This document shows, piece by piece, positions 550 to 39,815 of a DNA stretch of 64,000 nucleotides. Origin of the DNA: Vairimorpha necatrix (lineage: Eukaryota); contig CP142728.1 of assembly GCA_036630325.1 (NCBI GenBank), positions 186,001-250,000 of the forward strand, in the 5' to 3' direction. The translations under genes and the position numbers were made by a program. Every line of letters starts with the position of its first letter. Positions within the stretch are counted from its first letter, which is position 1. The notes beneath the pieces were generated by a model. It was not told where the DNA came from, searched no databases, and saw nothing but the letters and a program-made list of their open reading frames with translations.

Positions 550-2149
550 GGGGGTCGAAAATTTACAGTTATTTATAAAAAAATAACGGACAAATTAAAA
601 AATTTTATTGAATAGTGAAGCTTAGTATTTTCTTTTTAGATGATCAAATATCACATGTTTTTATGATTTAATTACTGTTTACTTTAAACTCTACAATAAT
701 AAAATTACTTTCTACAGTTACATCTTCCGCTTTTTTGCCTGAAAAAATTTATACCTCGGGAAATGTATTATTCTTTGGAATAACTTACAAAATGTACACG
801 TTGTTCGTCTCATACTAAATGTCAAAAATATTGATCTAAATAAAGTTCGCTAATTAAAATTTGAGAGTTGGAATAAACAAAAAAAAGACAAAATAACGTC
901 ATTAAAAGAAGTCAAAATTATATTGCAAGACTATAACTCATTAATACGCAAAACAAGATCCTTACATTTTTGTAAAAAAATTATAATTATACTTATTTAA
1001 GTATTATGGCGATAATAGGCCATTATAGATTTATATAAACTTTATCTTTATGAGGTTAACTGCATCGATTTTATATTTTAGTTAGTATACAATTTTTTAT
1101 GATTCATAAATGTTACTGTGTAATCGGAAACACAATCTCCCAAATCTATTAGTCCCATTGATGTCTGTATAACAATTAAACATCGCTTTCGTAAAAAAAA
1201 GTTAACATGGAATCGCAAAGCGCTAGAACAAGACACTATAGAAAACTAAAGACCTAAAATTTTGCCAATGCTTTTTTAAAATATTATTATTGTCATGGGC
1301 AGACAGTAAATGTCAGCTTACATAAACACTAAGCTTTGGCGGTTAACCTCACCTTCTTATGTAGCTTTTTGACAGTGTACTGAAAGATATAAAAATTCTA
1401 TTAACGTAAATAAATTATCTTGTGGATGTTTATTATTCTAATATGTATTGGAAAAGGTTTAAATCTTGTTACATTAAGAAAAGTTTGATTGAAACTTTTT
1501 TAGTGTCAACCAACCCATTTTTTCTAAAAAATTGCCACTATAGCATTATAAGTCTGAAATATTCTGCTATTTGGTCATGAATTTTATGACTTAGACCTAC
1601 TCTGCCTTTTTTCGCAGTGAAATAAATTATTACAATTGTGCTACTAAGTAAAAATATATTCTAATTTAAGATAAAAATTTTGAAATTTAAGCCAAACATC
1701 GAATAATGTAATCGACCTTGTACATATAAGTTTCAAAGATAAATATGTGTGAGAACATTTGCATATAATACATGGATTATTGTTTCTTCGTATATTGTAA
1801 AGATTTACAATATTAATGATATTAACGATATTGCTATGAAGACTTTAATCGGACGAATCATAAACTAATAGAGGTTGAAATAACTTACCAAATCCAAGGC
1901 GTATTACATTCATTTACGTTGAGGCACGATATATCAAATAAACATTTGATATCAACAAATGATAAGAACCACAAGTTACGAAAATACTTCGATAAAAAGA
2001 GTCTTTTAAATCTAATTTCGATTTACGCTGTATTTAAAATAACCCGTAAATGGCGATTTTGTTATAATCGCATTTCTGAGTCATTCTAATATTGGTAGGT
2101 TTTAAAATCCTTTCAAGAAAAGTAAATCCAGAGTATATATCCGAATGTA

Positions 2150-2898
2150 ACTGTAGACTAGCGATCGACAGCAAGAGTCCTTATCGGACGTGTTGGACTT
2201 GAATCCGAGATTCCAAAGTTGTTACATATCTTGGCGCAAATAAAACAACAATATAATGCAATTGTTCACGATAGTTATTATTTTATTTTAATAAAACTTG
2301 TATGCATCCAGGCATAAAGTTGAGCATCATGTATAGAAACGCACCATAAGTCTAGAATATAATATTACTCTGAGGCGAGTTATCGATATGCAAAGTATGT
2401 GCTAAGTACAACTAGTTAAATAAGTGGATTGTGCATTTTTGAGATTGATCACAAAGATAATTAAAAGATTTAACGAAGTGTGCAGTAGAAAATCTCGTTG
2501 CTATCCTACAATTTTCTATAACACGGTGCAAATCTAGTTTGAAGCCGGTGGTCAGCGCAGCTTAATAGAATGTTCGGCCAGTATATGGTGGGGTAATGAG
2601 TTGACTGAGTTGCAATTAATGGTAGGGACCTCTGGACAAAAACGATTATGTCTCTTCTTTGGTTACTAAAAAATGGTTATAATTATATTTGCAGGTTTCT
2701 TTGATGCTATTTGAGTTATATGGAAAACCTCCATTCTCAGGCTCAAAGTCCAATTTATACGGCTGCCTTGCTGCTCCGTCAAGTTTCATGGGGTGAGTAA
2801 GTGGGTCTGAATCGATCATATTGTTCAATAAGAATAAGCTTAAACCATTTTGTTCCCGTATAAGAGTTATCTCGACTTTTTATTTACAAGAAAAAAAA
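2150..2898 (+). mobile_element. Old, diverged copy of the tRNA-headed SINE-like element
   Basis: Colinear matches to 17688-18482: aaacttgt..catccag..tagaaacgcacc (2294-2345), ggtggtcagcgcagc (~2547-2561), caaagtccaat..atacggc..ccttgctgc (2744-2775), and a 3' end CAAG(A)8 at ~2887-2898. The 5' boundary is approximate. Confidence 0.7.
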
Positions 2899-11327: not shown

Positions 11328-14276
11328 TTTACATCTTAATGATACATGATATTATAAATGAAATAAAAAAATAGGTCGTCCCCGATTTTTTTAAAAATCT
11401 AAGTAACTAAGGAGAAATGCAATTTCCTAATTTTTCTTTATCGTTTTTTTTATTTATATATTTAGATAAAAATTTTAATTATAAAATAATTTATTTTTTC
11501 TCTAAAGAATCTTTTTATGGAGAAAAAATGGTCCGGCTTGGGCCGGATACTTCGAAATCTGTAAGGAAAATCTTTGGGGCGTAAGTAAATAAAATATTAG
11601 CGGCGATGTTATACGTGAGTTAAAATTAACATTTACTTGAAAGGGTGAAATTGATATCTTAAAAATGTCAAAAATCGTATATTTTAGATAACCCCCTAAT
11701 AAACTACTAGCTACGATTTTTTTTTTGAATATCATCGAAGAAGCTTTATATTGTAACATTCTAGATCTTACAAAAAAATCATCTGCATATTGTAAGATTT
11801 TTTTTTATGGTTTTGAATTTTGTAGTGGCAAAAAAATATTTATATATCATATAAATATATAACATTACATTTGATAATATAGATGTAAATCTTGTGGTTA
11901 GTCTTACTTTAGGTTTTTTTTTCATACATATATGCCATCAATATGTATGTATTAATAATATTTATATAGTTAATTCAACACTAAACATGTATTTAAGTGT
12001 TTGTTTTGCAAGTGGTTTTTAAAAATAAATCAAATACCTGTTTTATTTTATCTGTCGAATATACCAAAAATTTTGCATATGTAACAACAAACTAGTTATA
12101 TCAATACAATCAACAAAAACATTACAATATTACAAACAATTGTTAGTATTGCCGTAGCCCATCAAAAACTAGCTAGCAATTTTTCGACGAATGAACATAT
12201 TTGATAAGCTTCTTAAACTATTTAAATTAATTTACAAACGAGATGATTAGAAACAAAAATTAAACATTTGACAATTATAACTACCATCTGAAATTATAAT
12301 ACGTAAACGTGATGAAAAATTTACTCCTTACGTTTTATATATTAGAAAATAAAAATCAAGCGCCTAAAAATATATATAATACCGAGAGGTAAATGATCAT
12401 TTACGTTTATACGTTTGTTATAGTTACTAAAAATTTTATTTATATGAATAAATAGTAATTGTAACCTTTTTAAAGCAATAATATGTTTAATGCACCATAC
12501 TTGATTATAACAATATAAATTGTATATTAATGGGCAAATAAAAAAAATAATAAATGTTTTTATTAACTATTTAGATCCTTTAAAAAAAGCATATCCTATT
12601 ACGGCACATGCAGCAAATACTCCCATTACGAAAGATATATTTTTATAACATCTACTCTCTTGTTTTTCGGCTAGATTAACCAATTCAACATTATTCTCGG
12701 ATTTTATTCTTGACTTCTTGTCAGAAAGTTTATTTTCGGACTCAAAGAGGGCGTGTGTATGTTCATCAAAATCTATTTCAAGCATATCAAGATTTTCGCT
12801 AGTTATTTCTAATGGAAGGTCTCTAGATTCTGCAAAAGCTATATCACTTCTAACCGATCTATCTTCAAATTCTTCGTTATCTATTTTTAGATTTTTGTCT
12901 TCCAATTCTAAAAATGCTTCTATTTTATGATCAAGTTCTTTCTCGAGTAGTCTAAAATTTTCTTCAGTCAGTTCTTGAGGAATCGGTATAATTATAAATT
13001 CTTCTTCGCTTGAATCGAAGTGATTATCGACTAATTCTAATGATGTATCTTTATTTTCCCCAACGTTTTGTAGAAGCGAATTCGAACCTTTGATGTATCT
13101 TTCCGATGATGTTTGTGGTATAATCTCTAAAAAAGACTCAACTGGATAAATGTTATTTTGATTGCTAAAATTTGATGAATCGCTAGCATTCAAATACGAT
13201 ATTATTTTTGTCAAACATAAGAGCTGCATGGGGGTATTTCCGCCTCTTTTTTTATATTAAACAATTAATTTATACAATATATATCTTTGCAATTTGCTTT
13301 GATTTTTACAAAATTTTTATACTTTATATTTCCCTCCAATTTTTTTTCTAAAAATTTTATTTTTAATATAATTCGAATAAATTTTTTTTAATTTTATATA
13401 TTTAAAGTAAAAAATGTATTTATAAATATTCCAAACAAATCAATTCTTTGATCATGTCTAATTGTTATTTAATTAGTTTGCTGTCGAAGTTAAAATTTTA
13501 TTGACATGCAGATTTTTGATGTTTAATTGTATCTATGAATAATTTTAAATAAGAAATATTATCTAAACAATATTAATTCCGAAAACTCAAAGCACCGACT
13601 GGATATTTTGACGTTTATTAGTATTTCTCTTCCTTAAAAAATTTTTTTGTTTTTTATTTTACATAAAAAAGATAATAAAAATACAGAAGTACTTACAAGT
13701 GTACAAAATAATTGTGTATTTCATTTGTAAACATAACTTTTAAAATAAAAAAAAAGTTTAAAGTAAAAACTTGACTATTATACTTTTATTTTAAAAGTTA
13801 TATTGTGATTTATCTATTTTAAATTCATATTTATAATGTTTAATTTGCCGACAAATATTTCGATAGTGTTTTTAATTTATCAATAATTGAATAAATCAAA
13901 AATTCTCAAACACGTGTCATTCTTTTCAATATAACTGTCAGGTTAACATTTATTACCCCTTTGATAACCTGATGTTCATGGTCAACGTGTTGATCAATAT
14001 AATTATATCAACAACATGAAGAATAAGATACGGGTTGCAGAATGAAGAATAATTATAATTGATTGACGAAAATTCTAAATTTTTATGTTGGTAACTTTCA
14101 ATAATATAAATCTAATTTTTTTAATTATAACTTGACAAAAATGATAAATTTTTTGTAGTTAAAGAATATCCATGTTTTTTTAAAAATAATTTTAACTCAG
14201 AAACAACTTCCAGAATAGATTTATCATTAAGAATACAATACATTTATTTTTATATTTATTTTAAAGTTTTATAGGA
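11328..14276. repeat. Segmental duplication, copy 1
   Basis: Highly similar to 18483-21595, from tttacatcttaatgatac to ...ataGGA. Includes the gene at 12567-13229. Confidence 0.92.
12567..13229 (-). CDS. Acidic secreted/membrane protein (signal peptide, two ELTEENLxLLExELD-type repeats, C-terminal TM)
   Basis: 220-aa ORF with CCCCC before the ATG. N-terminus MQLLCLTKIISYLNA, C-terminal helix ISFVMGVFAACAVIGYAFF. Paralogue of 19689-20549. Confidence 0.85.
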   Translation of the reverse strand: MQLLCLTKIISYLNASDSSNFSNQNNIYPVESFLEIIPQTSSERYIKGSNSLLQNVGENKDTSLELVDNHFDSSEEEFIIIPIPQELTEENFRLLEKELDHKIEAFLELEDKNLKIDNEEFEDRSVRSDIAFAESRDLPLEITSENLDMLEIDFDEHTHALFESENKLSDKKSRIKSENNVELVNLAEKQESRCYKNISFVMGVFAACAVIGYAFFKGSK

Positions 14277-14326
14277 TGTTATATTCTGTAATATTATTGA
14301 CCCCCAATTTATGACAAATAAAGACA
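14277..14326 (+). repeat. 5' LTR (50 bp)
   Basis: tgttatattctgtaatattattgacccccaatttatgacaaataaagaca, followed by tggcg. Confidence 0.9.
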
Positions 14327-17318
14327 TGGCGAACACAAGAAACAAAAAGTCAGCAAGTGAGGACTGTGGTCAGGTGATCAGAACGATATGGAAGGAGTTT
14401 GGTATTATTATGTATGGATTGAGATTGAGAGAAGAGAAAGGGATTGAATTGAAAGACATTTTTAGTTTGGGTTCAGAGGATTTGAGAAATTTTATGGTGG
14501 AATATGTGAGGAAGGAGGACGGAATTGAGAAAATGGAGAAAATTTTAGAAGAGATGTATAGAGTAGAGGAAGAGCAGAGAGGAGAGAAAGAGATGTCGAA
14601 GGAGATTACGGAGAGAATCGTCAGAGAGGTAAGAGGAGAGATTGAACAGCAGAGGCGTTGGGCTGTGAGAAGAAGAGTTATAAGATGTTATGAGTGTCAG
14701 AGAATGGGACATAAGAGTGATAGATGTTATTACAAATATAAAGGAAAAGAAAATAAAAAGGAGTGCAATGCAGTCTACGAAAATGATAGTAGCGCTAGTG
14801 AGCGGAGTGGATATAGGACGACAGCAGCCGCGAAGAGGCAAAAGAAGCCTACAAGTAGAGAACTTCCAAAAAGAAAAAATGAAGTTGAGGCAGCTGGAAG
14901 CGTTTTAGGACTTGAAGAACTGAAGACAAAATATAGGAAAGTGTTTAGTTCGGGAGACGAGGTTATAGAATATTGTACGATTGAGAAATGTAAGATAAAA
15001 ACACAAGAGGGTGCTAAAGTAGTGAAGAAAGGACAGTGCATACCTCAAGCATTAATGGAGGATACTGAAAATTTTATTAAAGGACTGGAAAAGAGGAAGG
15101 TAATAAGAAGTCGAATTCGGAATGGAGAAATCCAATGAGAGCGTTAAGAAATCCAGATGGCGGAATAAGGCTAGTGAGTATTTTGATGGCCTTGAATGAT
15201 TTGGTTGAAAAGGATCCTTATGAGTTAGTTAATATAAGAGACATAATTAGAAATACACAGGGTTCAAAATATTTTACGGTAATTGATTTAAAGGAAGGAT
15301 TTTATAGTATTGAGATCGACGAGGCAGATAAACATAAAACTGCATTTGAATTTAATAGAAGGGTTTATGAGTGGAATAGTATGGTTATGGGATACAAGAA
15401 CTCCCCGCAGATTTTACAAAGAATAATGAATAAATTGTTTAAAAGACACTTGGGAAAAGGAATAGAAGTGTATATGGATGATATTGTTATACATGCAGCG
15501 ACGAGAGAGAAACACGATATATCGTTAGGAGAAGCACTTAGGAAGTTGAAAGATAATAAGATGAGGATTAATATTAATAAGGTACAGTTATGCTTGAAGG
15601 AGGTAAAGCTATTGGGGGTTACACTGAATGGTTTAGAGATAACACCGTCTGAAATAAAACAAAACGAAGCGTTAGAATTCCCAGAGCCACAAAACGTGTC
15701 AGAAGTAAGGAGATTTTTAGGATTAACAGGATGGTTTAGGGGCTTTATAAAAAATTATGCGGATTTAACGGTACATTTGACCGACAGTTTGAAGGGTAAG
15801 AACGAATGGAAATGGACAGAAAATATGAAAGATGAATTTGTTAAGTTGAAAGAAAAGGTTAAGACATTGGGAAAGTTGAAGATAGTTAATTATGAAAAGG
15901 AGTTTTTATTGAGAACCGATGCGTCAAACCTAGGAATGGGTGCAGTATTAATGCAAAAGAATGACGAAGAGGATTTGGTGCCACTACAGTGGGCTTCGAA
16001 AAAGTTTACTCCCACGGAATCAAGATACGGAATAAGCGAGAAAGAGATGTATGCGGTCTACTGGGGAATCAAAAAGTTCGATTATGAATTAAGAGGTCGT
16101 AAATTTGAAGTTGAAACAGACCATAAAGCTTTGATAGAAATCAGGAGAAAGCCACAATTCGATAATAATAGGATTAATAGGTGGATAGAGAAGATTCAAG
16201 AGTTCGATTTTACAATTGAGTACATGAAGCCAGATATAATGGTAGTGGCCGATGCGTTAAGTAGAGCGCCTGTTGAAGAGACTGAGAAAGAAGAAATGAT
16301 AAAGAAAAGAACAGTGAAACAAATCGAAGGAAAAGAAAAAAAAATACAGTATATGAAGATGGAAATGAATACTGGGTCTTTGATAGTGGTATAAGAGCAG
16401 AGATACCAAAGGAGGAAAATAGGGCAAAGTTAATAATGGAATATCATGAAAATGAAGGTCATCGTAGTGTTGGAAGTGTTTATTATGCGATGAAGAAGCT
16501 TTACTATTGGTTAGGGATGAAGTCAGAGATTTATATGAGTTATTGAAGTGTGAAAGATGTCAAATTTATAATAGGAAGAAGTCGGGCGGATGTGATTTTA
16601 TTAGTACCAGTAGATATTTAGAGAAAGTAGCTTTTGATTTGATTGAATTTCGCGACGAATGTAATTACGTTTTGATTGGTGTTGATTACCATACTAGATT
16701 GATTTGGGGAGTGAGCATGAAGGAAAAAAAGGCTCAGAATGTTGCTTGATTTATAGAAAGTTTATGTAGGAACGGAAACCGATCAGAGGAAATAATAACC
16801 GATAATGGCAAGGAATTTGTTAATGGGGGGATCTTAGGATATTATGTAGAAGATTAGATATTGCTCACAGGAAGATAAGCATAGAAAGCCACCGTAGTAA
16901 TGGACGTGTAGAGAGAGTAATAGAAACATTGAGAGAAGCTATTATGAAAATGAAAGGCGATGATTTTGACGATAAGGTTATGAGAGCGATTGATATGTAT
17001 AATAATAGTTACCACAGTGGGTTAGATTGTACACCGAAAGAGGCAATTATGGATACTAGTGGAAAAGTTATGATAGAAAATGGTCCTGAAGGAAGATACA
17101 GTAAGAAGTTTGTTAAATGGAAGAGAGAAAAGTTTTACAGGAATCAGAAAGTACGAGTAGCGAAAAAAGAAAATTTGAAGGGATGTACTAAATATGAAAA
17201 AGGACGATTTATGGAGAAGGGAAAAATTTACGCGATTTGTGGAGGTGATTCTTATATTGTACGATTGGAAACAGGACGGCTGGTGAAGAAAAGACATTAT
17301 GATTTAAAGGGGGTTTGA
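14311..17318 (+). pseudogene. gag-pol, broken by frameshifts and a stop
   Basis: Gag zinc knuckle CYECQRMGHKSDRC. RT IDLKEGF..MGYKNSP..YMDD. RNase H TDAS..EKE..TDH..VADALSR. Integrase GH..CERC, AFD, TDNGKEF, SNGRVER. Frameshifts near 15115, 16345 and 16830; stop at 16747-16749. Confidence 0.9.
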
Positions 17319-17350
17319 GTAAGTATGAGACTAATCGTCTTGGAGGGGGA

Positions 17351-17399
17351 TGTTATATTCTGTAATATTATTGACCCCAATTTATGACAAATAAAGACA
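17351..17399 (+). repeat. 3' LTR (49 bp)
   Basis: Identical to the 5' LTR except C4 versus C5. Directly follows the polypurine tract. Confidence 0.9.
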
Positions 17400-17687
17400 T
17401 ATTATGTTTTTTAAGACGATTGAAATAGAAGCGTATCAATATAATTATGTTTAAGCTTTGATGAATATTTTTAATTGCAAACAAAGGCTTATGTGCTTAA
17501 GAAAAACAGTTAATTTTGTAATTGCCTTATAATTCAATGTATTCGTATGATCTTACCTTTCGATTTTAGATCCCGAAATAATTTACCTTATTTAGTCCCA
17601 TTGAAAATAAGGTTTCTACTTTACATGTAATGTCTTAAAAAATATCTTGGCTTATTGATAACACAGGTGTAAACATATAGCGCATGA

Positions 17688-18482
17688 GGTGCCCTTAGCA
17701 CAGTGCTAGAATGCTATGCTTCCATTGAGCAATGGCTGGGTTCGATTCCCAGGGGCACCAAAATTGTTTCTACTTTCTATGATGCAGTTGGAACAACTCA
17801 GATGATGAAAATGTCCACGATAATCATTAAGTTGATTCAATGAAACTTGTGTGTGTCCAGCCACAAGGGGATTAGCATCTAGTGTAGAAACGCACCTCAA
17901 GGCCAAAAAGCAGTATCGCCCTTTGGTGACTTAATGATACATAAAAGTATCTAATGGGTACGGCCTAGTTGGAGCCCATGGCTGGTGCACTCTAGAGTGG
18001 GATCCTAGAGCTAACTAAGAGACTAGACGAAGTAGGGCAATAGAAGGTCTCGTGGACCCTATCCTACATGATTCTGTAATACGGTGGCCGAAACTAGTGG
18101 GAGACTGGTGGTCAACGCAGCCCAATAAAAACGCGGGGCTGGGGATGTGGTCGTGTAAGGAGCCGTGTGTGCAATACGGATGATTGTAGGGACCTTTGAG
18201 TCAGTACGATGATGTCTCTCCTCGGGTTATAGATAACCATGCCCGTTAAGTATATCCGCTGTGAGGTCACTCTGGACGCGATTTGAGGTATAAATGGAAA
18301 GTGTTCTCCTGGAGCCAAAGTCCAATGGATACGGCGGAGCTTGCTGCACCGGCAAGTGTATGGAGGGAGTTTTAGTGAGTAAGAATCTCATAGTACCAGT
18401 TGGATGAGGATCACAGCCAAATCCCTCTGGTCCCTATGTAAGGTTTCTCCCTACCTCTTGCTTGCAAGAAAAAAAAAAAAAA
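17688..18482 (+). mobile_element. tRNA-headed SINE-like non-coding retroposon, best-preserved copy
   Basis: 73-nt tRNA-like head at 17688-17760: acceptor GGTGCCC/GGGCACC, A-box-like TAGCACAGTG, perfect T arm CTGGG-TTCGATT-CCCAG. GC-richer non-coding body ending CTTGCAAG plus poly(A) at 18469-18482. Dispersed copies occur in the window. Confidence 0.85.
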
Positions 18483-21400
18483 TTTACATCTTAATGATAC
18501 ATGATATTATAAATGAAATAAAAAAATAGGCCGTCCCCGATTTTTTTAAAAATCTAAGTAATTAAGGAGAAATGCAATTTCCTAATTTTTCTTTATCGTT
18601 TTTTTATTTATATATTTAGATAAAAATTTTATTCCAAAATAATTTATTTTTTCTCTAAAGAATCTTTTTATGGAGAAAAAATGGTCCGGCTTGGGCCGGA
18701 TACCCCGAAATCTGTAAGGAAAATCTTTAGGGCGTAAGTAAATAAAATATTAGCGGCGATGTTATACGTGAGTTAAAATTAACATTTACTTTACAGGGTG
18801 AAATTGATATCTTAAAAATGTCAAAAATCGTATATTTTAGATAACCCCCTAATAAATTACTAGCTACGATTTTTTTTGAGTATCATCGAAGAAGCTTTAT
18901 ATTGTAACATTCTAGATCTTACAAAAAAATCATCTGCATATTGTAAGATTTTTTTTTATGGTTTTGAATTTTGTAGTGGCAAAAAAATATTTATATATCA
19001 TATAAATATATAACATTACATTTGATAATATAGATGCAAATCATGGATTATAACTTATTATGGGTTTTAAAAACATAAGAGATATCAAAACGTATGTATT
19101 AATAATATTTATATAGTTACTTCAACACTAAACATGTCTTTAAGTGTTTTATTGAAATTCAATTGTATGTTTTATTTTATCTGTCAAATATACCAAAAAA
19201 TTGCATATGTAACAAAAAAACCAGTCATATAAATACAATCAACAAAAACAATACAATTTTACTTACAATTATTATTATTCCTTGTTCACATCAAAAACTA
19301 GAAAATAATCTTCCGATGAATCAACGTATGAAAAACTCCTTAAACTATTTATATTAATTTACAAAAGAGAGTATGGGTCCGTAATGAAACATTTGAAATT
19401 ATTAAATATCGTTTGTTCATTTAAATACATCACAGAAGGAAAAATAAACTCCTTACGCTCCATATATTAGAAAAAAAAATCAAGCGGCCAAAAATATATA
19501 TAATACCCGTAGGTATATGATTAATTGCGTTTATATGTTTGTCAAAATACCTAGAACTTCATTTAATCCAATAAATCATAATTGTAAACTTTTTAAAGCA
19601 ATAACATTATCAATACAGCATACTTGATCTTTACAATATAAATTGAATATTAATGAGCAAATAAAAAATATAATTAATTTTTTATTAACTAGTTATATCC
19701 TTTTAAAAAAGCATAACCTACAACAGCACATGCTGCAAATACGCCCATTCCGAAAGATATATGTTTACTACATCTACTATCTTGTTTTTCATCTATATCA
19801 ACCGATTCAAAATTATTTTCGGCTTTTATTGTTGACTGCATGTCGGAAAGTTTATTTTCAGAAACAAACGAAGTGTGTTTAAGTTCATCAAGTTCTATTT
19901 CCAGTAGTTTGAGATTTTCGCTTGTTATTTCTAACGGGAGATCTCTAGATTCTGCAAAAGCTTCTTCACTTTTCACTGGATTGTCTTCAAATTCTTTTAT
20001 ATTTATTTCGAGATTATTGTCTTCCAATTCCAAAAATGCTTCTATTTTTTGATCAAGTTCTTTCTCGAGTAGTTTAAGATTTTCTTCCGATAATTCTACT
20101 GATTCGTATATAAATTCATTTTTTCCGTCTTCTTTTGTATCGATTTGTTCGTATTTTTCTCCTGATGGTATGTTTAATGATCCACTAAGACTCTCTTCAT
20201 ATATATTGGGATTATCATCAGTTAATTCTGTTTTTGGATGAGAAAGTTCATCAAGTTCCAACTCGAGAAATCTAAGATTTTCTTCCGTAAGTTCTAGTGG
20301 TTCGTTTAGAGTTATAAATTCTTCTTCGCTTGAATCGAAGTGATTATCGACTAATTCTAATGATGTATCTTTATTTTCCCCAACGTTTTGTAGAAGCGAA
20401 TTCGAACCTTTGATGTATCTTTCCGATGATGTTTGTGGTATAATCTCTAAAAAAGACTCAACTGGATAAATGTTATTTTGATTGCTAATATTTGAAGAAT
20501 CGCTAGCATTCAAATACGATATTAAGTTTGTCAAACATAAGAGCTGCATGGGGTATTTTCCGCCTCTTTTTTATATTAAATAATTAATTTATACAATATA
20601 TATCTTTGCAATTTGCTTTGATTTTTACATAATTTATATACTTTATATTTCCCTCTAAATTTATTTCTAAAAACTTTATTTTTAATATAATTCGAATAAA
20701 TTTTTTTTAATTTTATATATTTAAAGTAAAAAATGTATTTATAAATATTTTAAACAAATTAATTCTTTGATTATGTCTAATGGTTATTTAATTAGTTTGC
20801 TGTCGAAGTTAAAATTTTATTGACATGCAGATTTTTGATGTTTAATTGAATCTATGAATCATTTTAAATAAGAAATATAATCCAAACAATATTAATTCCG
20901 AAAACCCAAAGCACCGACTGGATATTTTGACGTTTATTAGTATTTCTCTTCCTTAAAAAAATTTTTTGTTTTTTATTTTACATAAAAAAGATAATAAAAA
21001 TACAGAAGTACTTACAAGTGTACAAAAGAATTGTGTATTTCATTTTAAACACAACTTTTAACACAAATAAAAAGTTTAAAGTAAAAACTTGACAATTATA
21101 CTTTTATTTTAAATGTTATATTGCGATTTATCTATTTTAAATTCATATTTATAATGTTTAATTTGCCGACAAATATTTCGATAGTGTTTTTAATTTATCA
21201 TACATTGAATAAATCAAAAATTTTCAAACACGTGTCATTCTTTTCAATATAACTGTCAGGTTGACATTTATTACCCCTTTGATAACCTGATGTTCATGGT
21301 CAACGTGTTGATCAATAAAATTATATCAACAACATGAAGAATTAGATACGGGTTGCAGAATGAATAATGATTATAATTGATTGACGAAAATTCTAAATTT

Positions 21401-21595
21401 TTATGTTGGTAACTTTCAATAATATAAATGCTATTTTTTTAATTATAACTTGACAAAGATGAATAAATTTTTTGTAGTTTAAGAATATCATGTTTTTTTT
21501 AGAAATAATTTAAACTCAAAAACAACTTCCAGAATAGATTTACCATTAAGAATACAATACATTTATATTTATATTTATTTTAAAGTTAAATAGGA
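18483..21595. repeat. Segmental duplication, copy 2
   Basis: Homologous to 11328-14276. Begins immediately after the SINE poly(A). Confidence 0.92.
19689..20549 (-). CDS. Acidic secreted/membrane protein (signal peptide, three acidic repeats, C-terminal TM)
   Basis: 286-aa ORF. The first ~79 aa are almost identical to 12567-13229, and it carries an extra internal repeat block. CCCC precedes the ATG. Confidence 0.85.
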   Translation of the reverse strand: MQLLCLTNLISYLNASDSSNISNQNNIYPVESFLEIIPQTSSERYIKGSNSLLQNVGENKDTSLELVDNHFDSSEEEFITLNEPLELTEENLRFLELELDELSHPKTELTDDNPNIYEESLSGSLNIPSGEKYEQIDTKEDGKNEFIYESVELSEENLKLLEKELDQKIEAFLELEDNNLEINIKEFEDNPVKSEEAFAESRDLPLEITSENLKLLEIELDELKHTSFVSENKLSDMQSTIKAENNFESVDIDEKQDSRCSKHISFGMGVFAACAVVGYAFLKGYN

Positions 21596-22049
21596 TTTAT
21601 TTTATACTATGAGAAACTACGACCACCGTATTTTGAATTCTAATCAAAACTTATATTTGCAAAAGTGTGTGTAAAACAAATTTTTAGTCTTGATGAATAT
21701 AAACTCTCCAATAAAAATTTTTTATAAGTTATATAATCAATTATTAATTACATATGATACTATACGATTTTTTTTTAAAAAACCTTATCTAAAAATTTAA
21801 AGGATTTTTAACAAAATGTGCCTAACATTCATTCCATATAAAATTTTAAAAAATTTTGTTATATAAAAATTTACATGAGATCCGATGATAAACACATATT
21901 GCGGAGAAATTTTAACTGATTTTGTTTTATTTGTTGAATAAAACTAATTTAAATAAAAAAATTAAATTTGTTTATATTGAACTATTCACATTTTTTAGTA
22001 TTGAAAAAAATATTAGAAAAAAAGGAAAATCTTCCACGAAGGCTTCCGT

Positions 22050-23519: not shown

Positions 23520-24259
23520 TTTTTTTTGCAAGGAAGAGCTAGTAAGAAATCTTACATAGTAACCAGAGGGATTTAATTGTGCTCCTTATACAACTGGTAC
23601 CGTGAGATTATTAGTCACACACCATTCAAAAAACTTGCCGGATCTATTGGACTATGGTTTTAGAACCCCTTTTCCATTTATGCCCCAAATCGTGCCCAGA
23701 TTGACCTCACTGCGGATATACTTGACGGGCATTATTTTATATGGCCCATGGGGAGACATCATTGTACTAACTCATTGCCCCCACAATCATATGTATCGCC
23801 TATACGGCTCCTTACACTTCACATCACCAGACCGGCATTTTATTGGACTGCGTTGACCAACAAGTTCCAAAGTTTCAACCGCGGTGCTAAAGAATCTTGT
23901 AGAATAGGGACCACGCTGTCCTCTATTGCTATACTTGTCTAGTTTCTTAATTAGCTCTAGGATCCCACTTTAGAGTGCTCCAGCTATGCTGTGCCCATCA
24001 GATACGCTATTTATCATTAAGTCCCCAGAGGGAGATACTGTTTTCGGCCCCAGGGTGGGTTTCTACACAAGATTCTAATTCCCTCGTGGCTGAACACACA
24101 CAAGTTTCATTGAATCAACATAATGTTTATCTAAACATTTTTATCATCTGAGTTGTTTAAACTGCATCATAGAAAGTAAAACAATTTAATGCCCCTTGGA
24201 TTCAGATCCAGGCATTGCACAATAAGAGTATCGCCTTCGAGGACTGGGCTTAAAGCACC
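23520..24259 (-). mobile_element. SINE-like element, second near-full copy
   Basis: The reverse complement aligns along 17688-18482: T-run plus GCAAG at 23520, accagagggattt, ttagctctaggatcccact, cacacaagtttcattgaatcaac, and a degenerate tRNA head ending gcacc at 24259. Confidence 0.88.
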
Positions 24260-24417
24260 TATAGACTAAAACGTTTCATACAATTTAAAAACTACATTTA
24301 ATCCTTGATCATAGGAGCAATCTAAAATGTAGAGTCAAAATAAGTTTATATTACATTTCTACGCAATTTTTTCTTCGAAGAGGCTTAAAAAGCAATGATA
24401 TCCATTTTATCTTTAAG

Positions 24418-25329: not shown

Positions 25330-26280
25330 TAATTTGACTTTATTTTTACAAGAACCATATGACGTCATATTTAATTTAAGTCGTATTGTTTATGAAAGTT
25401 TATTGTATAGTAGTTTTGTATTTATATGCATTTATATATCCCTTACAATTAATGGTTATATTATAAGCAACTTATTCAATATACAATTCTATAATGTCCA
25501 AAATCAGTTATTAATTTTTTTGTTTATAATGTACTAGCTAAAGAAGTTCTGTTCGGATCTTGAGATTAACTCATCATTTATGCTCTAGATAGCGTTTAAA
25601 ATATATTTATCTTCTGATTGCCTTATGCTTTCGTTATTTTTATCTTGTTTATGATTTTTCCACATCTATAGGTCGCTGCGGATTTGTTTAACAAAGAACT
25701 CTCGTTTGTTTATATGGTTTCCTTTAAAAGGTGCTTAAGATCTTATATATAAGATCTAGAAGATTAAAACCAATTTTGAATAACTGTAAAGTGAAATTCT
25801 TAAAAACGTAGGTTTTTTCTCCAGCATAACAAGCTCCGCCGAGAAAATTTGACCTGGCTTTAAAACATTTTTCTGTTTCTGGTTATGTCACGTTGGAATA
25901 ATTCGCTGAAAATCATATTATCGAGCACAACTATAAGTGACAAAAAAAAAGAAATTTTATTACAAGCATTTAAACTTTTGCCATCTATTGCATCTCACAC
26001 AAGCCCCATATACCCTCAAAATACGAGTCTCGCATTTATAGGTCTTTGACCCCTTGCCTTCCACAAATTTCGCCGGAGTGTCACAGAACAAAAATCGGAG
26101 ATAAATTAAGGCTACGGACTTACTTCTTTTAATTTCTTAATTCACTATGGGTTCGCATTTAAAAAGCACCAATCCATGCCCTTATTTGCATATATTACTT
26201 TGCGTGTAAGTATCATAAAAACATATTCGGCGAGCCTATGATACATTTATAAATGGATGTAAATATCTTGTAGCAAGATG

Positions 26281-26328
26281 CACACAAGTTTCATTGAATC
26301 AACTTAATTATTGCCGTGGGCACATTTT
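26281..26328 (-). repeat. Short SINE fragment
   Basis: cacacaagtttcattgaatcaacttaat..tt..cgtgg is the reverse complement of ~17810-17855. Confidence 0.75.
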
Positions 26329-26501
26329 TCAGATCAGATTATCTTGAAAATTCTTGAGACAGAATCAAAGTAAACTTTTAGAAAACATCCTGTGTCATTT
26401 ATGCATCAACACAATGCTTACGATCACTAAGCTACGTTAAACTTTCTAAATAATATTTTGATTTTTACAAGATATAATTTTTTTCAGTTTTTCCCCTTCA
26501 T

Positions 26502-29240: not shown

Positions 29241-29465
29241 TATGATATCCTAAATATCATACGATATGTTTACTAACATTTCCCTCCAAATTTGACATCT
29301 TTCCCTCCAAGTCCAATACTTTTCCCTCCGATAAATATTTAAACATTTTATCCATCGAGGGGTACGAGATGAATAAAGAACAGGAAACAAGAAGAATAAC
29401 CAATACGGTTAACAAACAAATAAATATTAATATTCTTGACATGTTCTTAAGTGGTGGATACCACA
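29241..29465 (+). repeat. 5' LTR (225 bp)
   Basis: TATGATATCC...GGATACCACA, with three internal TTTCCCTCC repeats. Confidence 0.93.
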
Positions 29466-32400
29466 AGTTAAATTTAACCAAGCTGTATCCTAAACTAAAC
29501 AAAAGGATAAAAACTGAATCTATCAAAGAAATGATCAGCTTTGAAGTCAAAATCAAAGGCCTAAAGGAGCCAATTATTAAACAATTAGAAAAAGTGAAAT
29601 ATATTGAAAAAACCAACATGTTAAAATGGTTTAAAAAATTTGAAGACATTAGCAATAAACTAGAATGGAACGATGAAGAGAATCTAATAGTACTGCAGAA
29701 TGTAATTGAAGGTTATGAAAATCAATATGGAAATGATGCTAAGACGTACGCGAAATTAAAGGAAGAGATCTTAAGTATAGCCTATCCAAAAAACCTATTC
29801 TCTTCGGCGGGTGTAAGAGTGCTAGAAATAAAACAGACTAATTATGACCTAATAGAGGAGATGATTACGGAAATTCAGACCAAATTAGAAGTGGCGTCGT
29901 ATCTAGAAAAATATACTAAGAATGAATACGAAAGAAGATTTAATGAAGTATGCCTAAATTCGTTAACAGAGGCCACTAAAGATTATGTTATGAAAGCTGG
30001 TGTAAAGAACGTCAAAGAAATTATACACTTACTAATAACTCTGGAGAAGGAACTAATCGCTAGAATACATAGTGATTTAGATCGAGCCAGAAGTACCTCG
30101 ACCGACGTTAGAGAACCAATGCTACGAAATGAAATGAATCGATGGTGTAGCTTGCATAGGTCAAGAACACATAACACTAGTGACTGCTTTAGTAGGAATA
30201 AAAGAAACGAAGATAGGAGTAGCAAAATAAAGAAAGAGGAATTTAAATCCAATAAAGATATTACGTTTTCCCATTGTAAAGTAATTTTAAAAGAAAAATC
30301 CGAGTATCTAACAGTAAAACTACCCGTGTATATTAACGGCCAGACTGTAATCGCCATATTGGATACGGGCTGCACTAAAAACCTAGTAAGCGTAGACAAG
30401 GTGAACCAACTAGGGATCACTACGAGGAAGGGCATCGGAGTAAACTTTATATTTGGTAACGGACACCAGGAGATGTCAGGAGAGATTATAGAAGAAAACA
30501 TTCGAATAAGCAGTCTAAATATTGAAATCCCAACAAGACTGCACGTAATAAGAGAACTATCGGCCGACATAATATTGGGGGTAGAATTCTTAAGTGAGAA
30601 TCAAATCATCCTCAACTTTGCCACCCAAACAATCTGTAATAACCAAAGGATTATCAATATGGTTAACGGATTACCACTTCCATACGAGGAAAACAGAGAT
30701 TTACTATTGCAAAGATGTTTTGCCATAAACGAAAAGAATGTCAGCACCGAGAACACCTCGAAGATATTAAAATACATGAAAAACAATGAGTTATTCAAAG
30801 AGATGAAAATCAAGAGAATTGCATTTGAACTGAGCAACAAAGGGAACTTAAGACTGACAAATAAAAAATACACGATCCCACCCAAGTACCTTGATGCAAC
30901 TAAGCAGGAGATAAAAAGACTGTTGAAAGAGAAAATTATCAAATACAGTGAAAGTAAGTACAGCAGCCCCGCATTCGTCATTGCCAAGAAAAATAACGAA
31001 ATAAGGCTAGTAGTAGATTATAGGGAATTGAACCAAAATATAGTTGATGAAATGGATTTACTACCTAAGATAAAAGATATGATGAACGAGGTCAAGGGTG
31101 CAAAGTATTTCACTAAAATCGACCTAAAAAACGGATTCAATCAGGTACCCATAGAAGAAAATTCCATGAGTCTGACCAGTTTTAAAATTTTAGGAAATGT
31201 TTACAAATATACAAGAATCCCATTCGGCATTAAATCAGGCCCCAAACTATTTCAAAGAACGATAAATAAAATATTGGCAGAGATACCCAATGTAGTAGTA
31301 TATATTGATGATATTTTAATATACACCTTAACCAAAGAGGAACATAATACGATTTTAAACCAAGTACTAGACAGATTATCCAGTTATAAAATAAAAATTA
31401 ACTTCGAAAAGAGTATATTTGCGGTTAAAGAAGTCGAGATGTTAGGCATGATTATAAATGAAAAGGAAATAAAGCCTAATGTAAGTAATATAGGTAAAGT
31501 ATTAGTAAAGTTAGATATAACAAAACGACGGGAGCTACAGAAAATCCTAGGAATCTTAAACTGGTACAGAGAGTTTGTGCCCAATTTTAGTGCCAAAGTC
31601 ATGAATTTAACTGATAAACTGAAGGGAGCTGAGCAAAAGAAAGAATTAACAGAGAGCGAGAAGCAAAATATACGGGCCTTAGTCAATGAAATTAAGGAAA
31701 ATGGAAAACTGGTGGCCCCGAAATATGAGGAAGAATTTTGTCTACAAACTGATGCATCGGATAAAGCCATGGGAGCGGTATTGTTTCAACAACACGGATG
31801 CATAGGTTATTACAGCAAGAAATTTACCGACGCCGAAGCAAACTACACAATTGTCGAAAAAGAAATGTTCGCAATATTGCAAAGCCTAATATTCTTTAAA
31901 GGAATTGTAATGGGATACCCAGTTAAAGTTATGTGCGATAACAGAAATTGCCTATTTGATACCCAAAATAATAATAGCAGAATGATAAGATGGAAGATGA
32001 TGCTCAATGAATATAATCTTACACTAGAAGGCATAGAGGGAAAAAGAAATGTAATTGCGGATCATCTATCGCGGTCGCCCACAGAAGAAATATTACAAAT
32101 TAAAACAGACAATGAAAAAGAAGAAAAGGAAGTATTTAAGGAAACCTTAGCTGTTCCGGGAACTAAGAAAAACGACAAACTACACATAAAGTCTAGTGAA
32201 AGTGAAAATTTTATTAAAAGCATGCATTTAAAAAGCAAGCATGCAGGAATGTTTGTTTTATATTATAACTTGAAAGATTATTACTATATATACAAAATGA
32301 AGGAAATTATTAAAAAGGTAGTCAGCAGTTGTCAAAACTGTAAACATAACAAAAAATTTAGCTATCACAAACTCGAAGATAAAATGGGAATCACAGCCAA

Positions 32401-33103
32401 AACACCGTTTGAAAAAATATGTTCAGATATTTACGGTCCATCAAGGATAAACAATACAAAATGGTTCATATTGACGATCATCGACGTTTATACCAGGTAT
32501 ACAAAGGTGTATAAATTAAGAGAAATCACAAACAATAGAGTGGTCGAGTGTTTTGAAAAATGGTGCAGGGAGTTCCATTATCCTAAAACTATAATTACAG
32601 ACAACGGAACACAGTATACAAGTAATCTAGTTAAAAACTTTGCAAACGAAAATAATATAAATCTCATACATGTACCAAAATACCACCCACAGAGCAATGG
32701 CATCTGTGAGAGAACAAATACCACTATATCGGAAATAATCAGGTTATACAAATCAGAGCCGCTTGAGAAAATACTAGAAAACATCGAAATTAGATTAAAT
32801 AAAAACTTCAGAAGATCAATAGGCTGCGCCCCTGAAGAGCTAGTCACGGGGAATAATCAATTTGACCCTAAAGGAAGAGTGCGGCTTAAGAAGATAACAA
32901 AGACCGCGAAGAAGAATCTGGAGAATAAAAAGATCAAGAAAGTAAAAATAGGAGATAAGGTGTATGTAAGAAACTTTCTAGCTAAGAAGTGGGAAAAGGC
33001 GTTCACGGGACCATACCTAGTAGAATCAGTTGGTAAGAATGGCAGGTGGTTCAAAGTCAAAGGAGTCTACGAGTGGATTCACATTGCCGACACCAAACTC
33101 TAA
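29369..33103 (+). CDS. Gag-Pol polyprotein, single uninterrupted ORF
   Basis: Knuckle CSLHRSRTHNTSDC, protease LDTG, RT IDLKNGF/PFG/YIDD, RNase H TDAS/ADHLSR, integrase H-x4-H/CxxC, SD..TDNGTQY..SNGICER, GPY motif. Confidence 0.96.
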   Translation: MNKEQETRRITNTVNKQININILDMFLSGGYHKLNLTKLYPKLNKRIKTESIKEMISFEVKIKGLKEPIIKQLEKVKYIEKTNMLKWFKKFEDISNKLEWNDEENLIVLQNVIEGYENQYGNDAKTYAKLKEEILSIAYPKNLFSSAGVRVLEIKQTNYDLIEEMITEIQTKLEVASYLEKYTKNEYERRFNEVCLNSLTEATKDYVMKAGVKNVKEIIHLLITLEKELIARIHSDLDRARSTSTDVREPMLRNEMNRWCSLHRSRTHNTSDCFSRNKRNEDRSSKIKKEEFKSNKDITFSHCKVILKEKSEYLTVKLPVYINGQTVIAILDTGCTKNLVSVDKVNQLGITTRKGIGVNFIFGNGHQEMSGEIIEENIRISSLNIEIPTRLHVIRELSADIILGVEFLSENQIILNFATQTICNNQRIINMVNGLPLPYEENRDLLLQRCFAINEKNVSTENTSKILKYMKNNELFKEMKIKRIAFELSNKGNLRLTNKKYTIPPKYLDATKQEIKRLLKEKIIKYSESKYSSPAFVIAKKNNEIRLVVDYRELNQNIVDEMDLLPKIKDMMNEVKGAKYFTKIDLKNGFNQVPIEENSMSLTSFKILGNVYKYTRIPFGIKSGPKLFQRTINKILAEIPNVVVYIDDILIYTLTKEEHNTILNQVLDRLSSYKIKINFEKSIFAVKEVEMLGMIINEKEIKPNVSNIGKVLVKLDITKRRELQKILGILNWYREFVPNFSAKVMNLTDKLKGAEQKKELTESEKQNIRALVNEIKENGKLVAPKYEEEFCLQTDASDKAMGAVLFQQHGCIGYYSKKFTDAEANYTIVEKEMFAILQSLIFFKGIVMGYPVKVMCDNRNCLFDTQNNNSRMIRWKMMLNEYNLTLEGIEGKRNVIADHLSRSPTEEILQIKTDNEKEEKEVFKETLAVPGTKKNDKLHIKSSESENFIKSMHLKSKHAGMFVLYYNLKDYYYIYKMKEIIKKVVSSCQNCKHNKKFSYHKLEDKMGITAKTPFEKICSDIYGPSRINNTKWFILTIIDVYTRYTKVYKLREITNNRVVECFEKWCREFHYPKTIITDNGTQYTSNLVKNFANENNINLIHVPKYHPQSNGICERTNTTISEIIRLYKSEPLEKILENIEIRLNKNFRRSIGCAPEELVTGNNQFDPKGRVRLKKITKTAKKNLENKKIKKVKIGDKVYVRNFLAKKWEKAFTGPYLVESVGKNGRWFKVKGVYEWIHIADTKL

Positions 33104-33122
33104 AATGATGGGAGAGGCAGAT

Positions 33123-33347
33123 TATGATATCCTAAATATCATACGATATGTTTACTAACATTTCCCTCCAAATTTGACATCTTTCCCTCCAAGTCCAATA
33201 CTTTTCCCTCCGATAAATATTTAAACATTTTATCCATCGAGGGGTACGAGATGAATAAAGAACAGGAAACAAGAAGAATAACCAATACGGTTAACAAACA
33301 AATAAATATTAATATTCTTGACATGTTCTTAAGTGGTGGATACCACA
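33123..33347 (+). repeat. 3' LTR (225 bp)
   Basis: Matches the 5' LTR. Confidence 0.93.
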
Positions 33348-34150
33348 AAAACAATTATAAAAAATTTTAATCTTACTTGTATTAAAGACATACAGGCACT
33401 TATAGACAATGAGTTTAGTTCTAAAACTTTTTGTAATCAGAAACTTGTAGAATATTTGGCATTATTACTTGATTCTGTCCATAGCAGATATAAATTTTAT
33501 TTTAAGTTGTGCTCCGAGATTGACAGAAAAATTTCTTTTGATGAGTTGATGGCTGAGTCTGGTCATTTGTTATTAAAATATGATAAAAAAATGTATCGTA
33601 GTGATGTGGCTTTTATAAATGAAAAAATGAAGAAATTGACATACACGGAAAGTAATAAAATTGAAAGTGAAAGAAGTTTAATGGAATTTCTTAATGAAGT
33701 TTATAAAAATGAATAAAAATTTTATCTATTTATATAAAAAACATTTGATAATTGATTACTTATAGAAATATACATCAAAAAACTTTTAAATCGATATTGA
33801 ATCCTTAATTGAGTTCTATAATTATTGCAAATACATATAGAAATATACATTAAAAAACTTACAAATCGATATTAAATTTTTATATGAGTTCCATACTTAG
33901 TGCAAATACATATATAAATACTATACTAATATTGAAAAATTTTACTCAAATTTTTTTTAGACCTTTGCCGACTAGATCTAACAAAATAGCTAATTTAAGA
34001 GTTAATTTTAAAAGTTAATTTATACATAATTGATTAAATGTATTATTAAAAATCTATTTTTTAATTTTATACTTTTTTATTCATTTTTTAGCACATATAT
34101 TCTTCTTTATTGTTTATTGTTTTAATAATTTTTACACCCCATACAAGTTT

Positions 34151-36120: not shown

Positions 36121-36157
36121 ATAAAAAAAACAAGCGTATGCTTTCCCGTTTTGAAAA

Positions 36158-38788: not shown

Positions 38789-38963
38789 TATAATATAATA
38801 TAATATAATATAATATAATAATAATGTTATATTATATAATATGTACTATAATATATAAATATTGTTATATAATATTATAATGTGTAAATATTATAATTTG
38901 CTTAGATATTGTTATATAATATATAACATATTGTTTTATAGTACAATTATTTAATAGAATAAT

Positions 38964-39744: not shown

Positions 39745-39815
39745 TGCGAATAGCGGGAGTCGAACCCGCACCACCAGATTATGAGACTGATACGCTACCG
39801 CTACGCCATACTCGC
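39745..39815 (-). tRNA. tRNA-Met(CAT), elongator type
   Basis: Acceptor GCGAGTA/TATTCGC-A, anticodon loop CTCATAA, T arm GCGGG-TTCGACT-CCCGC, downstream T-run terminator. Confidence 0.93.

What the first reader, a model, noticed from the sequence alone, without database searches (positions are those of the whole stretch)
17688..18482. tRNA-derived SINE family in a microsporidian-type genome
Seen: an ~800-bp non-coding element with a foldable tRNA head (intact acceptor stem, T arm and B-box, non-canonical anticodon loop), a GC-richer body and a CAAG-poly(A) end. It has three near-full copies of differing divergence (2150-2898, 17688-18482, 23520-24259) and three fragments (26281, 46360, 50780) in 64 kb. 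Known: this is the Pol III SINE architecture, and SINEs need a LINE partner. Inference: an abundant, long-lived and unusually long SINE. tRNA scanners may mis-call the head as a tRNA, and ORF callers call spurious ORFs in the body.
Basis: partly seen in the sequence, partly recalled or inferred. Interest (0 to 1): 0.75.

Follow-up and report, generated by a model that had tools for sequence, protein, structure and literature searches.

The report
Microsporidian SINE with its partner LINE
This is a real, very abundant 780-base jumping element (a tRNA-headed SINE) in an insect-parasite genome, an ordinary kind of element, whose tail comes from a rare resident LINE retrotransposon and is predicted to fold like that LINE's tail, which points to the enzyme that probably copies it.

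Summary
Confirmed: a 783-nt tRNA-headed SINE. Its 3' end matches 144 sites in the 15-Mb genome (control 0), and 34 of 42 full-length copies have target-site duplications (median 14 bp) with variable poly(A). The head is a decayed tRNA, not a working one.

New here: the tail is homologous to the ORF2 end and 3' UTR of one of three resident LINE types, a poly(A)-tailed APE-RT LINE (LINE3) of a Vairimorpha lineage. It matches neither abundant T-tailed LINE. Folded separately, young SINE tails and LINE3 tails give the same four-way junction, with five double changes that keep pairing; RNAalifold did not recover it. LINE3 has only four tails and no full-length copy in this assembly, so the present driver is inferred. 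The focal copy lacks a duplication and looks like a SINE-SINE recombination junction.

The scan noted this family many times on other DNA of this genome. I found no description of a microsporidian SINE in the papers searched; Dfam, Repbase and SINEBase could not be checked. New member of a known kind.

The parts
17688..18482 (+). Focal SINE copy, subfamily A, 99.0% identical to its nearest copy (L002)
17688..17760 (+). tRNA-like head: perfect 7-bp acceptor stem plus discriminator A, T arm intact, one extra base after the acceptor stem, no canonical anticodon arm
17696..17706 (+). A-box; the focal copy carries a private G-to-C change at 17706
   Evidence: sequence against other copies; the box consensus is recalled
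17739..17749 (+). B-box GGTTCGATTCC
   Evidence: sequence; the box consensus is recalled
17761..18303 (+). Central body, about 540 nt: non-coding, no Rfam match, no folding signal, origin not found
18304..18398 (+). Block homologous to the last codons of ORF2 and the start of the 3' UTR of LINE3 (78% over 96 nt)
18351..18466 (+). 3' module predicted as a four-way junction in young copies and in LINE3; a private C-to-T at 18391 weakens one hairpin in the focal copy
18370..18373 (+). The only run of four or more T on the sense strand: a possible leaky Pol III stop, shared with LINE3
18469..18482 (+). Poly(A) tail, 14 nt
17671..17687 (+). Left copy of the target-site duplication that is complete in L011 and L014; its right copy is missing here
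18483..21603 (+). 3' flank: diverged duplicate (85-94%) of window 11328-14285, beginning exactly after the poly(A)
23523..24260 (-). Older near-full copy, 76% identical
2147..2892 (+). Oldest near-full copy, 66% identical
46221..46518 (-). 3' fragment (model positions 482-787)
25821..26329 (-). Internal fragment (model positions 123-668)
50760..50806 (-). 47-bp tail fragment

Best explanation
A tRNA-derived, non-autonomous retroposon (SINE) of the stringent type. Step 1 (inferred): RNA polymerase III transcribes it from the A and B boxes in the decayed tRNA head and reads through the single internal T4. Step 2 (inferred): the 3' 170 nt, taken from the end of an ancestral LINE3-type element, folds into a four-way junction that the LINE3 ORF2 protein grips. 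Step 3 (signature shown): the endonuclease nicks the target and reverse transcription starts in the A tail, leaving an 11-19-bp duplication, a variable poly(A) and 0-3 extra 5' bases. Shown: anatomy, copy number, insertion signature, tail homology to LINE3 and to neither of the other two LINE types. Predicted only: the fold. Inferred: transcription, and that LINE3 is still the driver, from a full-length copy outside this haploid assembly or recently lost. I put the SINE call at about 0.95, LINE3 ancestry of the tail at about 0.9, and LINE3 as driver of the young copies at about 0.65.
For: Copy number: 144 matches to the 18-nt 3' end, control 0; 41 of 43 listed DNA matches near full length at 95-100%. 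Duplications in 34 of 42 copies against 4 of 1716 mismatched flank pairs. Subfamily B is 99.4% identical with 17-26-A tails. Tail against LINE3: nhmmer E 2e-16; alignment z 27.8, against 0.2, 0.6 and -0.8 for LINE-T, the R4-like LINE and LINE-T's own short partner. The block reads FSWSQSPMDTAELAAP, 13 of 16 identical to the C-terminus of the V. ceranae homologue and 12 of 16 to LINE3. LINE3 ends in poly(A), and its copy L159 has a 13-bp duplication with one mismatch. Fold: junction probability 0.89-0.91 in two young SINE tails and 0.75-0.92 in the four LINE3 tails, against 4-10% of shuffles; the last 120 nt is the only one of 23 windows below z -2. Of 14 anchored pairs, 8 are unchanged, 1 changed on one side, 5 on both, none broken. 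An RNA run from a differently labelled organism holds a diverged SINE relative and a LINE3 relative together.
Against: LINE3 has only 4 tails in the assembly and none is full length; the one long open frame lacks its 5' part. LINE-T has 11 open 1242-codon frames, makes duplications of similar length (read by eye), and one LINE-T insertion shares a target site with a SINE (L027/L096). The last 70 nt of SINE and LINE3 are only 48% alike. RNAalifold on a MAFFT alignment of 7 tails gave no consensus pair. The same abstract shape appears in 2 of 8 LINE-T and 1 of 4 R4-like windows. The covariation rests on two lineages (about 0.45^5 = 0.02 by chance, my estimate). The focal copy's own best fold lacks one hairpin. 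In 8 of 30 tRNA loci the first downstream T run is T4, so the internal T4 could stop transcription before the module. No RNA run of this organism was returned.
Confidence: 0.68

Rival explanations
1. Still a SINE with a LINE3-derived tail, but the young copies are made by the abundant, intact LINE-T (or the R4-like LINE) acting in a relaxed way. The LINE3 module is then a relic, or serves RNA stability.
For: LINE-T has 11 open ORF2 frames while LINE3 has no full-length copy. Duplication lengths are similar. One shared target site. The two RTs are 39% identical.
Against: No tail homology to LINE-T or the R4-like LINE. Both end in T-rich tails while the SINE ends in A. LINE-T has its own short partner sharing about 330 nt of tail at 86%, which suggests stringent recognition. 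The SINE block stays 96% identical over 47 nt to a LINE3 relative in another sample.
Confidence: 0.24
2. The 783-nt RNA is, or descends from, a functional host non-coding RNA (a tRNA-headed precursor or a ribozyme), and the copies are its retroposed pseudogenes.
For: Acceptor stem and T arm are kept in both head types. Two body blocks stay above 85% identical in a relative from another sample.
Against: No Rfam match in the body. No folding signal outside head and tail. The tail derives from LINE coding sequence. Two subfamilies spread from different masters.
Confidence: 0.05
3. A DNA-based repeat (MITE, Helitron fragment or passenger of segmental duplications) rather than a retroposon.
For: Some copies do travel in duplicated segments (L011/L014; L096/L161/L164).
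Against: Variable-length duplications, variable poly(A), unrelated flanks and no terminal inverted repeats.
Confidence: 0.02

Closest known systems
tRNA-derived SINEs with a LINE-derived 3' tail; fungal pairs Mg-SINE / MgL (MGR583) of Magnaporthe and SINE2-1_BG / Tad1-24_BG of Blumeria (table in PMC3747384, passage seen)
   Same: tRNA head, non-coding body, tail homologous to a resident LINE, target-site duplications.
   Different: Host is a microsporidian. The partner is an APE-RT LINE grouping with Vairimorpha and Smittium elements, not shown to be Tad1. Length is 783 nt. The shared block includes the last ORF2 codons.
Stringent-type LINE tails recognised by ORF2, such as zebrafish ZfL2-1 and ZfL2-2 (PMC4176376, abstract and outline seen)
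   Same: A folded 3' element shared by LINE and SINE, with variable stems.
   Different: The abstract describes a stem-loop; here the prediction is a 115-nt four-way junction. No binding was tested here.
SINE fraction listed for Nosema bombycis, 0.18% of the genome (PMC3614468, table passage seen)
   Same: A SINE class in a related microsporidian.
   Different: No family name, sequence or partner in the passages seen, so identity with this family cannot be tested. Here the family fills 1.7% of a 200-kb sample.
LINE3 homologues: V. ceranae endonuclease-reverse transcriptase (P0122), V. bombi (P0129, P0131), Smittium culicis (P0127, P0132)
   Same: 78%, 41-44% and 36-37% identity to LINE3 ORF2; same C-terminal motif in P0122.
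   Different: Their DNA could not be fetched, so their 3' UTRs and any partner SINE were not compared.

Membership tests
tRNA-derived SINE | Head homologous to tRNA with A and B boxes | tested here: met
   source tRNA unresolved: best Ala(TGC) for head A and Leu(TAA) for head B among 50 fetched of 63 loci
tRNA-derived SINE | Dispersed, many copies, no coding capacity | tested here: met
tRNA-derived SINE | Variable target-site duplications and a simple-sequence tail | tested here: met
   34 of 42 copies, control 4 of 1716
tRNA-derived SINE | Transcribed by RNA polymerase III | not testable with these tools
   no RNA run of this organism returned; one internal T4
Stringent SINE/LINE pair | 3' tail homologous to a resident LINE | tested here: met
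Stringent SINE/LINE pair | Shared tail structure with compensatory changes | tested here: inconclusive
   for; against:
Stringent SINE/LINE pair | An intact partner LINE in the genome | tested here: not met
   4 LINE3 tails, none full length, in this haploid assembly; other haplotypes not available
Stringent SINE/LINE pair | ORF2 binds the tail and mobilises the SINE | not testable with these tools
   needs an assay
Functional tRNA gene | Canonical cloverleaf above the RF00005 cut-off, followed by a T run | tested here: not met
   23.7-26.6 bits against a cut-off of 29 and 54.7-75.2 for true genes; no T run behind the head
MITE / DNA transposon | Terminal inverted repeats and a fixed-length duplication | tested here: not met
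   ends read; duplications of 11-19 bp
A named family in Dfam, Repbase or SINEBase | Sequence match to a library consensus | not testable with these tools
   libraries not held

The most novel reading that the evidence does not exclude
A microsporidian LINE lineage uses a large four-way-junction RNA, overlapping the last ORF2 codons, as its handle or as a 3'-end processing element, unlike the small stem-loops described for stringent LINEs. A SINE captured this module before the Vairimorpha species split, now outnumbers its LINE at least 36 to 1, has nearly extinguished it, and acts as a recombination point for rearrangements between haplotypes of a tetraploid parasite.
Probability: 0.25. Interest if true: 0.65.

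Novelty: new member of a known kind. Interest (0 to 1): 0.4.

Why it matters
Microsporidia are the textbook case of genome reduction, and the surveys of their mobile elements that I searched do not mention SINEs. This family shows a Pol III-type retroposon filling roughly 1-2% of one such genome. Naming a partner LINE and a shared tail fold gives a direct test of how a deep-branching fungal-type LINE recognises its RNA. Practically, the heads are mis-called as tRNA-Met, and the copies offer a candidate cause for the rearrangements between haplotypes reported in tetraploid microsporidia. The class of element is well known, so the surprise is moderate.

Tried and rejected
PF14529 found no endonuclease in the genome; this was a false negative, since PF03372 and RT searches found APE-LINEs.

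LINE-T and the R4-like LINE as tail donors: no homology.

A hidden 5' half of LINE3 upstream of the LINE-T array: not found.

Ribozyme or other Rfam family in the body or tail: none.

An upstream hairpin (H0) with two more double changes: ensemble probability under 0.1, so not counted.

RNAalifold consensus of 7 tails: empty. By my reading the alignment is one column out of register in its 3' half and it held two divergent copies.

A third, 66-67% subfamily: its copies share flanks and fold poorly, so they are passengers of a duplicated unit.

Relatives in public collections: none in metagenome, viral or prokaryote contigs; the one viral pattern hit is unrelated.

5S rRNA origin of the SINE or of LINE-T's short partner: not significant (55 of 1000 shuffles reached the score).

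Parts of the focal flanks not covered by contigs prove nothing about the junction.

Full report
Observation. The element is at 17688-18482 on the + strand. The window holds two further near-full copies, 23523-24260 (minus, 76%) and 2147-2892 (plus, 66%), and three fragments. GC is 47.5% in a 27.6% window. The host is a microsporidian: a neighbouring gene carries the 8TM microsporidial domain, and a protein read from this genome is 100% identical to one that its source labels Vairimorpha necatrix.

Copy number and age. A DNA search gave 360 candidates, of which 40 were scored; 41 of the 43 listed matches are near full length at 95-100% identity. The 18-nt 3' end matches 144 sites with at most one mismatch, control 0. 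Head type A matches 50 sites, control 0. Twenty evenly spread 10-kb stretches held 5 pieces covering 1.7% of 200 kb, reversed control 0; that scales to about 375 pieces (Poisson range about 120-875, my estimate). Copies range from 99% down to 60% identity. Subfamily B is the youngest: 99.4% mean identity in 12 copies, tails of 17-26 A against 5-21 in subfamily A. A and B differ at 15 of the first 73 positions but at only 10 of the next 707; I cannot explain this concentration in the head.

Insertion signature. Of 43 full-length young copies, one was dropped for lacking an A run. Of the other 42, 34 have a target-site duplication, median 14 bp; one is a weak 7-bp call and two are segmental duplicates of one event. 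Mismatched flank pairs gave 4 of 1716. Most copies carry 0-3 extra bases before the head. This is the signature of target-primed reverse transcription (established knowledge).

Head. The acceptor stem and T arm are intact in both head types. The head scores 23.7 bits (focal copy) and 26.6 bits (L002) against RF00005, below the cut-off of 29, while the 63 scored tRNA genes score 54.7-75.2. ARAGORN still calls it tRNA-Met. The source tRNA is unresolved among the 50 of 63 loci fetched. The focal copy has a private change in its A-box.

Partner LINE. RT searches showed three non-LTR types. LINE-T is 5.6 kb with two ORFs, an APE-RT ORF2 and a T-rich tail; 11 copies have an open 1242-codon frame. 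A 3.6-kb single-ORF element, which I read as R4-like from its C-terminal motifs (recalled, not tested), also ends T-rich. LINE3 is an APE-RT element ending in poly(A) (L150). Only LINE3 matches the SINE: model positions 615-712 at E 2e-16, and alignment z 27.8 against 0.2 and 0.6 for the other two. The block covers the last ORF2 codons: the SINE reads FSWSQSPMDTAELAAP, the V. ceranae homologue ends FSWSQSPMGMAELDAP, LINE3 ends VSWSQSSMSTAELVAP. Related proteins at 36-37% identity keep a similar C-terminal motif, so the direction is most likely LINE to SINE. In a FastTree of 33 RT regions, LINE3 groups with V. ceranae and V. bombi proteins (support 1.0), next to Smittium elements (0.94) and away from the insect-labelled ones. 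That favours descent within the lineage over capture from the host. I could not assign a named LINE clade.

Against LINE3 as present driver. Its tail occurs only 4 times. One copy has a 1092-codon open frame but lacks its 5' part, one is decayed, two are 350-bp fragments; no missing 5' half was found. The species is described as tetraploid (PMC10759460, passages), so a source copy may lie on a haplotype not held here. LINE-T is intact and abundant, and one LINE-T insertion shares its target site with a SINE. But LINE-T has its own 430-nt partner with a 330-nt shared tail.

Tail fold. Folded separately, two young SINE tails and all four LINE3 tails give a closing helix with three hairpins, at ensemble probability 0.75-0.92 against 4-10% of shuffles; five divergent copies give 0.00-0.31. 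The last 120 nt is the only one of 23 windows with z below -2 (-3.55); the whole element has z -1.45. Anchored at the shared linkers, 14 pairs give 8 unchanged, 1 changed on one side, 5 on both, none broken; chance is about 0.02 by my estimate. Against: RNAalifold on 7 aligned tails gave no pair, the same abstract shape appears in 2 of 8 LINE-T and 1 of 4 R4-like windows, and the focal copy's best fold loses one hairpin through a private change. The fold is a prediction. The 540-nt central body has no Rfam match, no long ORF and no folding signal; its origin is not found.

Transcription. The sense strand has one T4 and no longer run. In 8 of 30 tRNA loci the first downstream run is also T4, so read-through is an assumption. 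No RNA run of this organism was returned. Four runs were laid, all as contigs. In DNA run X2 the summed depth on the SINE is 13,000-168,000 against a few hundred on most flank bins. RNA run X19, labelled with another organism, has 3 contigs here: two are colinear, diverged SINE relatives, and one matches the shared block at 45 of 47 bases with LINE3-like flanks. This suggests that SINE and LINE3 relatives occur together in another species; it does not show transcription.

The focal copy. It shares at least 1.5 kb of 5' flank (95%) with L011 and L014, which have the full duplication. Its 3' flank instead begins a duplicate of window 11328-14285. At 11 of 17 sites where L011 and L014 agree against it, it matches L002, across its whole length. 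The simplest reading is recombination between two SINE copies; a haplotype switch in the assembly would look the same. Rearrangements between haplotypes are reported in tetraploid microsporidia (PMC12558613, abstract and passages).

Literature. Nine searches returned no description of a microsporidian SINE family. The word SINE does not occur in the main text of PMC4202319, PMC7313128 (nor in its 9 held supplements), PMC10759460, PMC12449221, PMC12558613 or PMC8206274 (term searches and passages). PMC3614468 lists an unnamed SINE fraction of 0.18% for N. bombycis (passage). PMC11585130 reports none in Microsporidia MB (passages). PMC13702014 has a SINE category in a figure I could not see (passages). 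PMC6416283 names SINEs only as a class (passages). Fungal SINE/LINE pairs are tabulated in PMC3747384 (passages); tail recognition by ORF2 is in PMC4176376 (abstract and outline). Other supplements, subscription papers, Dfam, Repbase and SINEBase were not seen and could hold this family.

Earlier notes. 71 notes on this genome fit the look-up, and the eight shown reach the same SINE verdict. One spoke of a folded tail module and one of a LINE tail with four copies and an unproven fold. These were leads only.

Verdict. A real, active-looking tRNA-derived SINE: a new member of a known kind, apparently undescribed in this group, with a specific candidate partner and a testable tail structure. Interest 0.4.

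Noticed in passing
L184:8651-9065, L099:6680-7111, L091:5941-6375: A second non-autonomous element of about 430 nt shares a 330-nt T-rich tail with LINE-T (86%) and forms arrays with it. Its head aligns end to end with 5S rRNA but not significantly (55 of 1000 shuffles).
   Followed up: partly
L091-L100: LINE-T starts within a few bases of its ORF1 start codon, ends in T-rich tails and piles up in head-to-tail arrays; both longer LINE3 copies sit inside or beside such arrays.
   Followed up: partly
L133:1938-5554 and L134-L151: A young 3.6-kb single-ORF RT element, probably R4-like, 87-99% identical among copies, with T-rich ends.
   Followed up: partly
L027 / L096 (G000:C11:668633-675000): A SINE and a LINE-T sit side by side with three copies of the same target sequence.
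   Followed up: no
window 14274-17400: Ty3/gypsy-type element whose two end repeats are only 54 bp, without a matching flank duplication.
   Followed up: partly
window 29241-33348: Ty3/gypsy-type element with identical 226-bp LTRs and a 1244-aa open frame: a very recent insertion.
   Followed up: no
window 39992-42730: Telomerase reverse transcriptase gene, next to a true tRNA-Met at 39745-39815.
   Followed up: no
window 36156-38823: Tandem array with a period of about 520 bp, 73-76% identical between units.
   Followed up: no
window 12567-13229 and 19689-20549: Duplicated gene pair of no Pfam family (220 and 286 aa) with a hydrophobic N-terminus and C-terminus and an acidic middle of differing length.
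   Followed up: partly
L167:1505-1666, L168:840-2440: Tandem SINE heads, and a subfamily B copy inserted into the B-box of an older copy.
   Followed up: no
L162:1108-1879: Chimeric copy: young head and body with the tail and 3' flank of the 66% subfamily.
   Followed up: no
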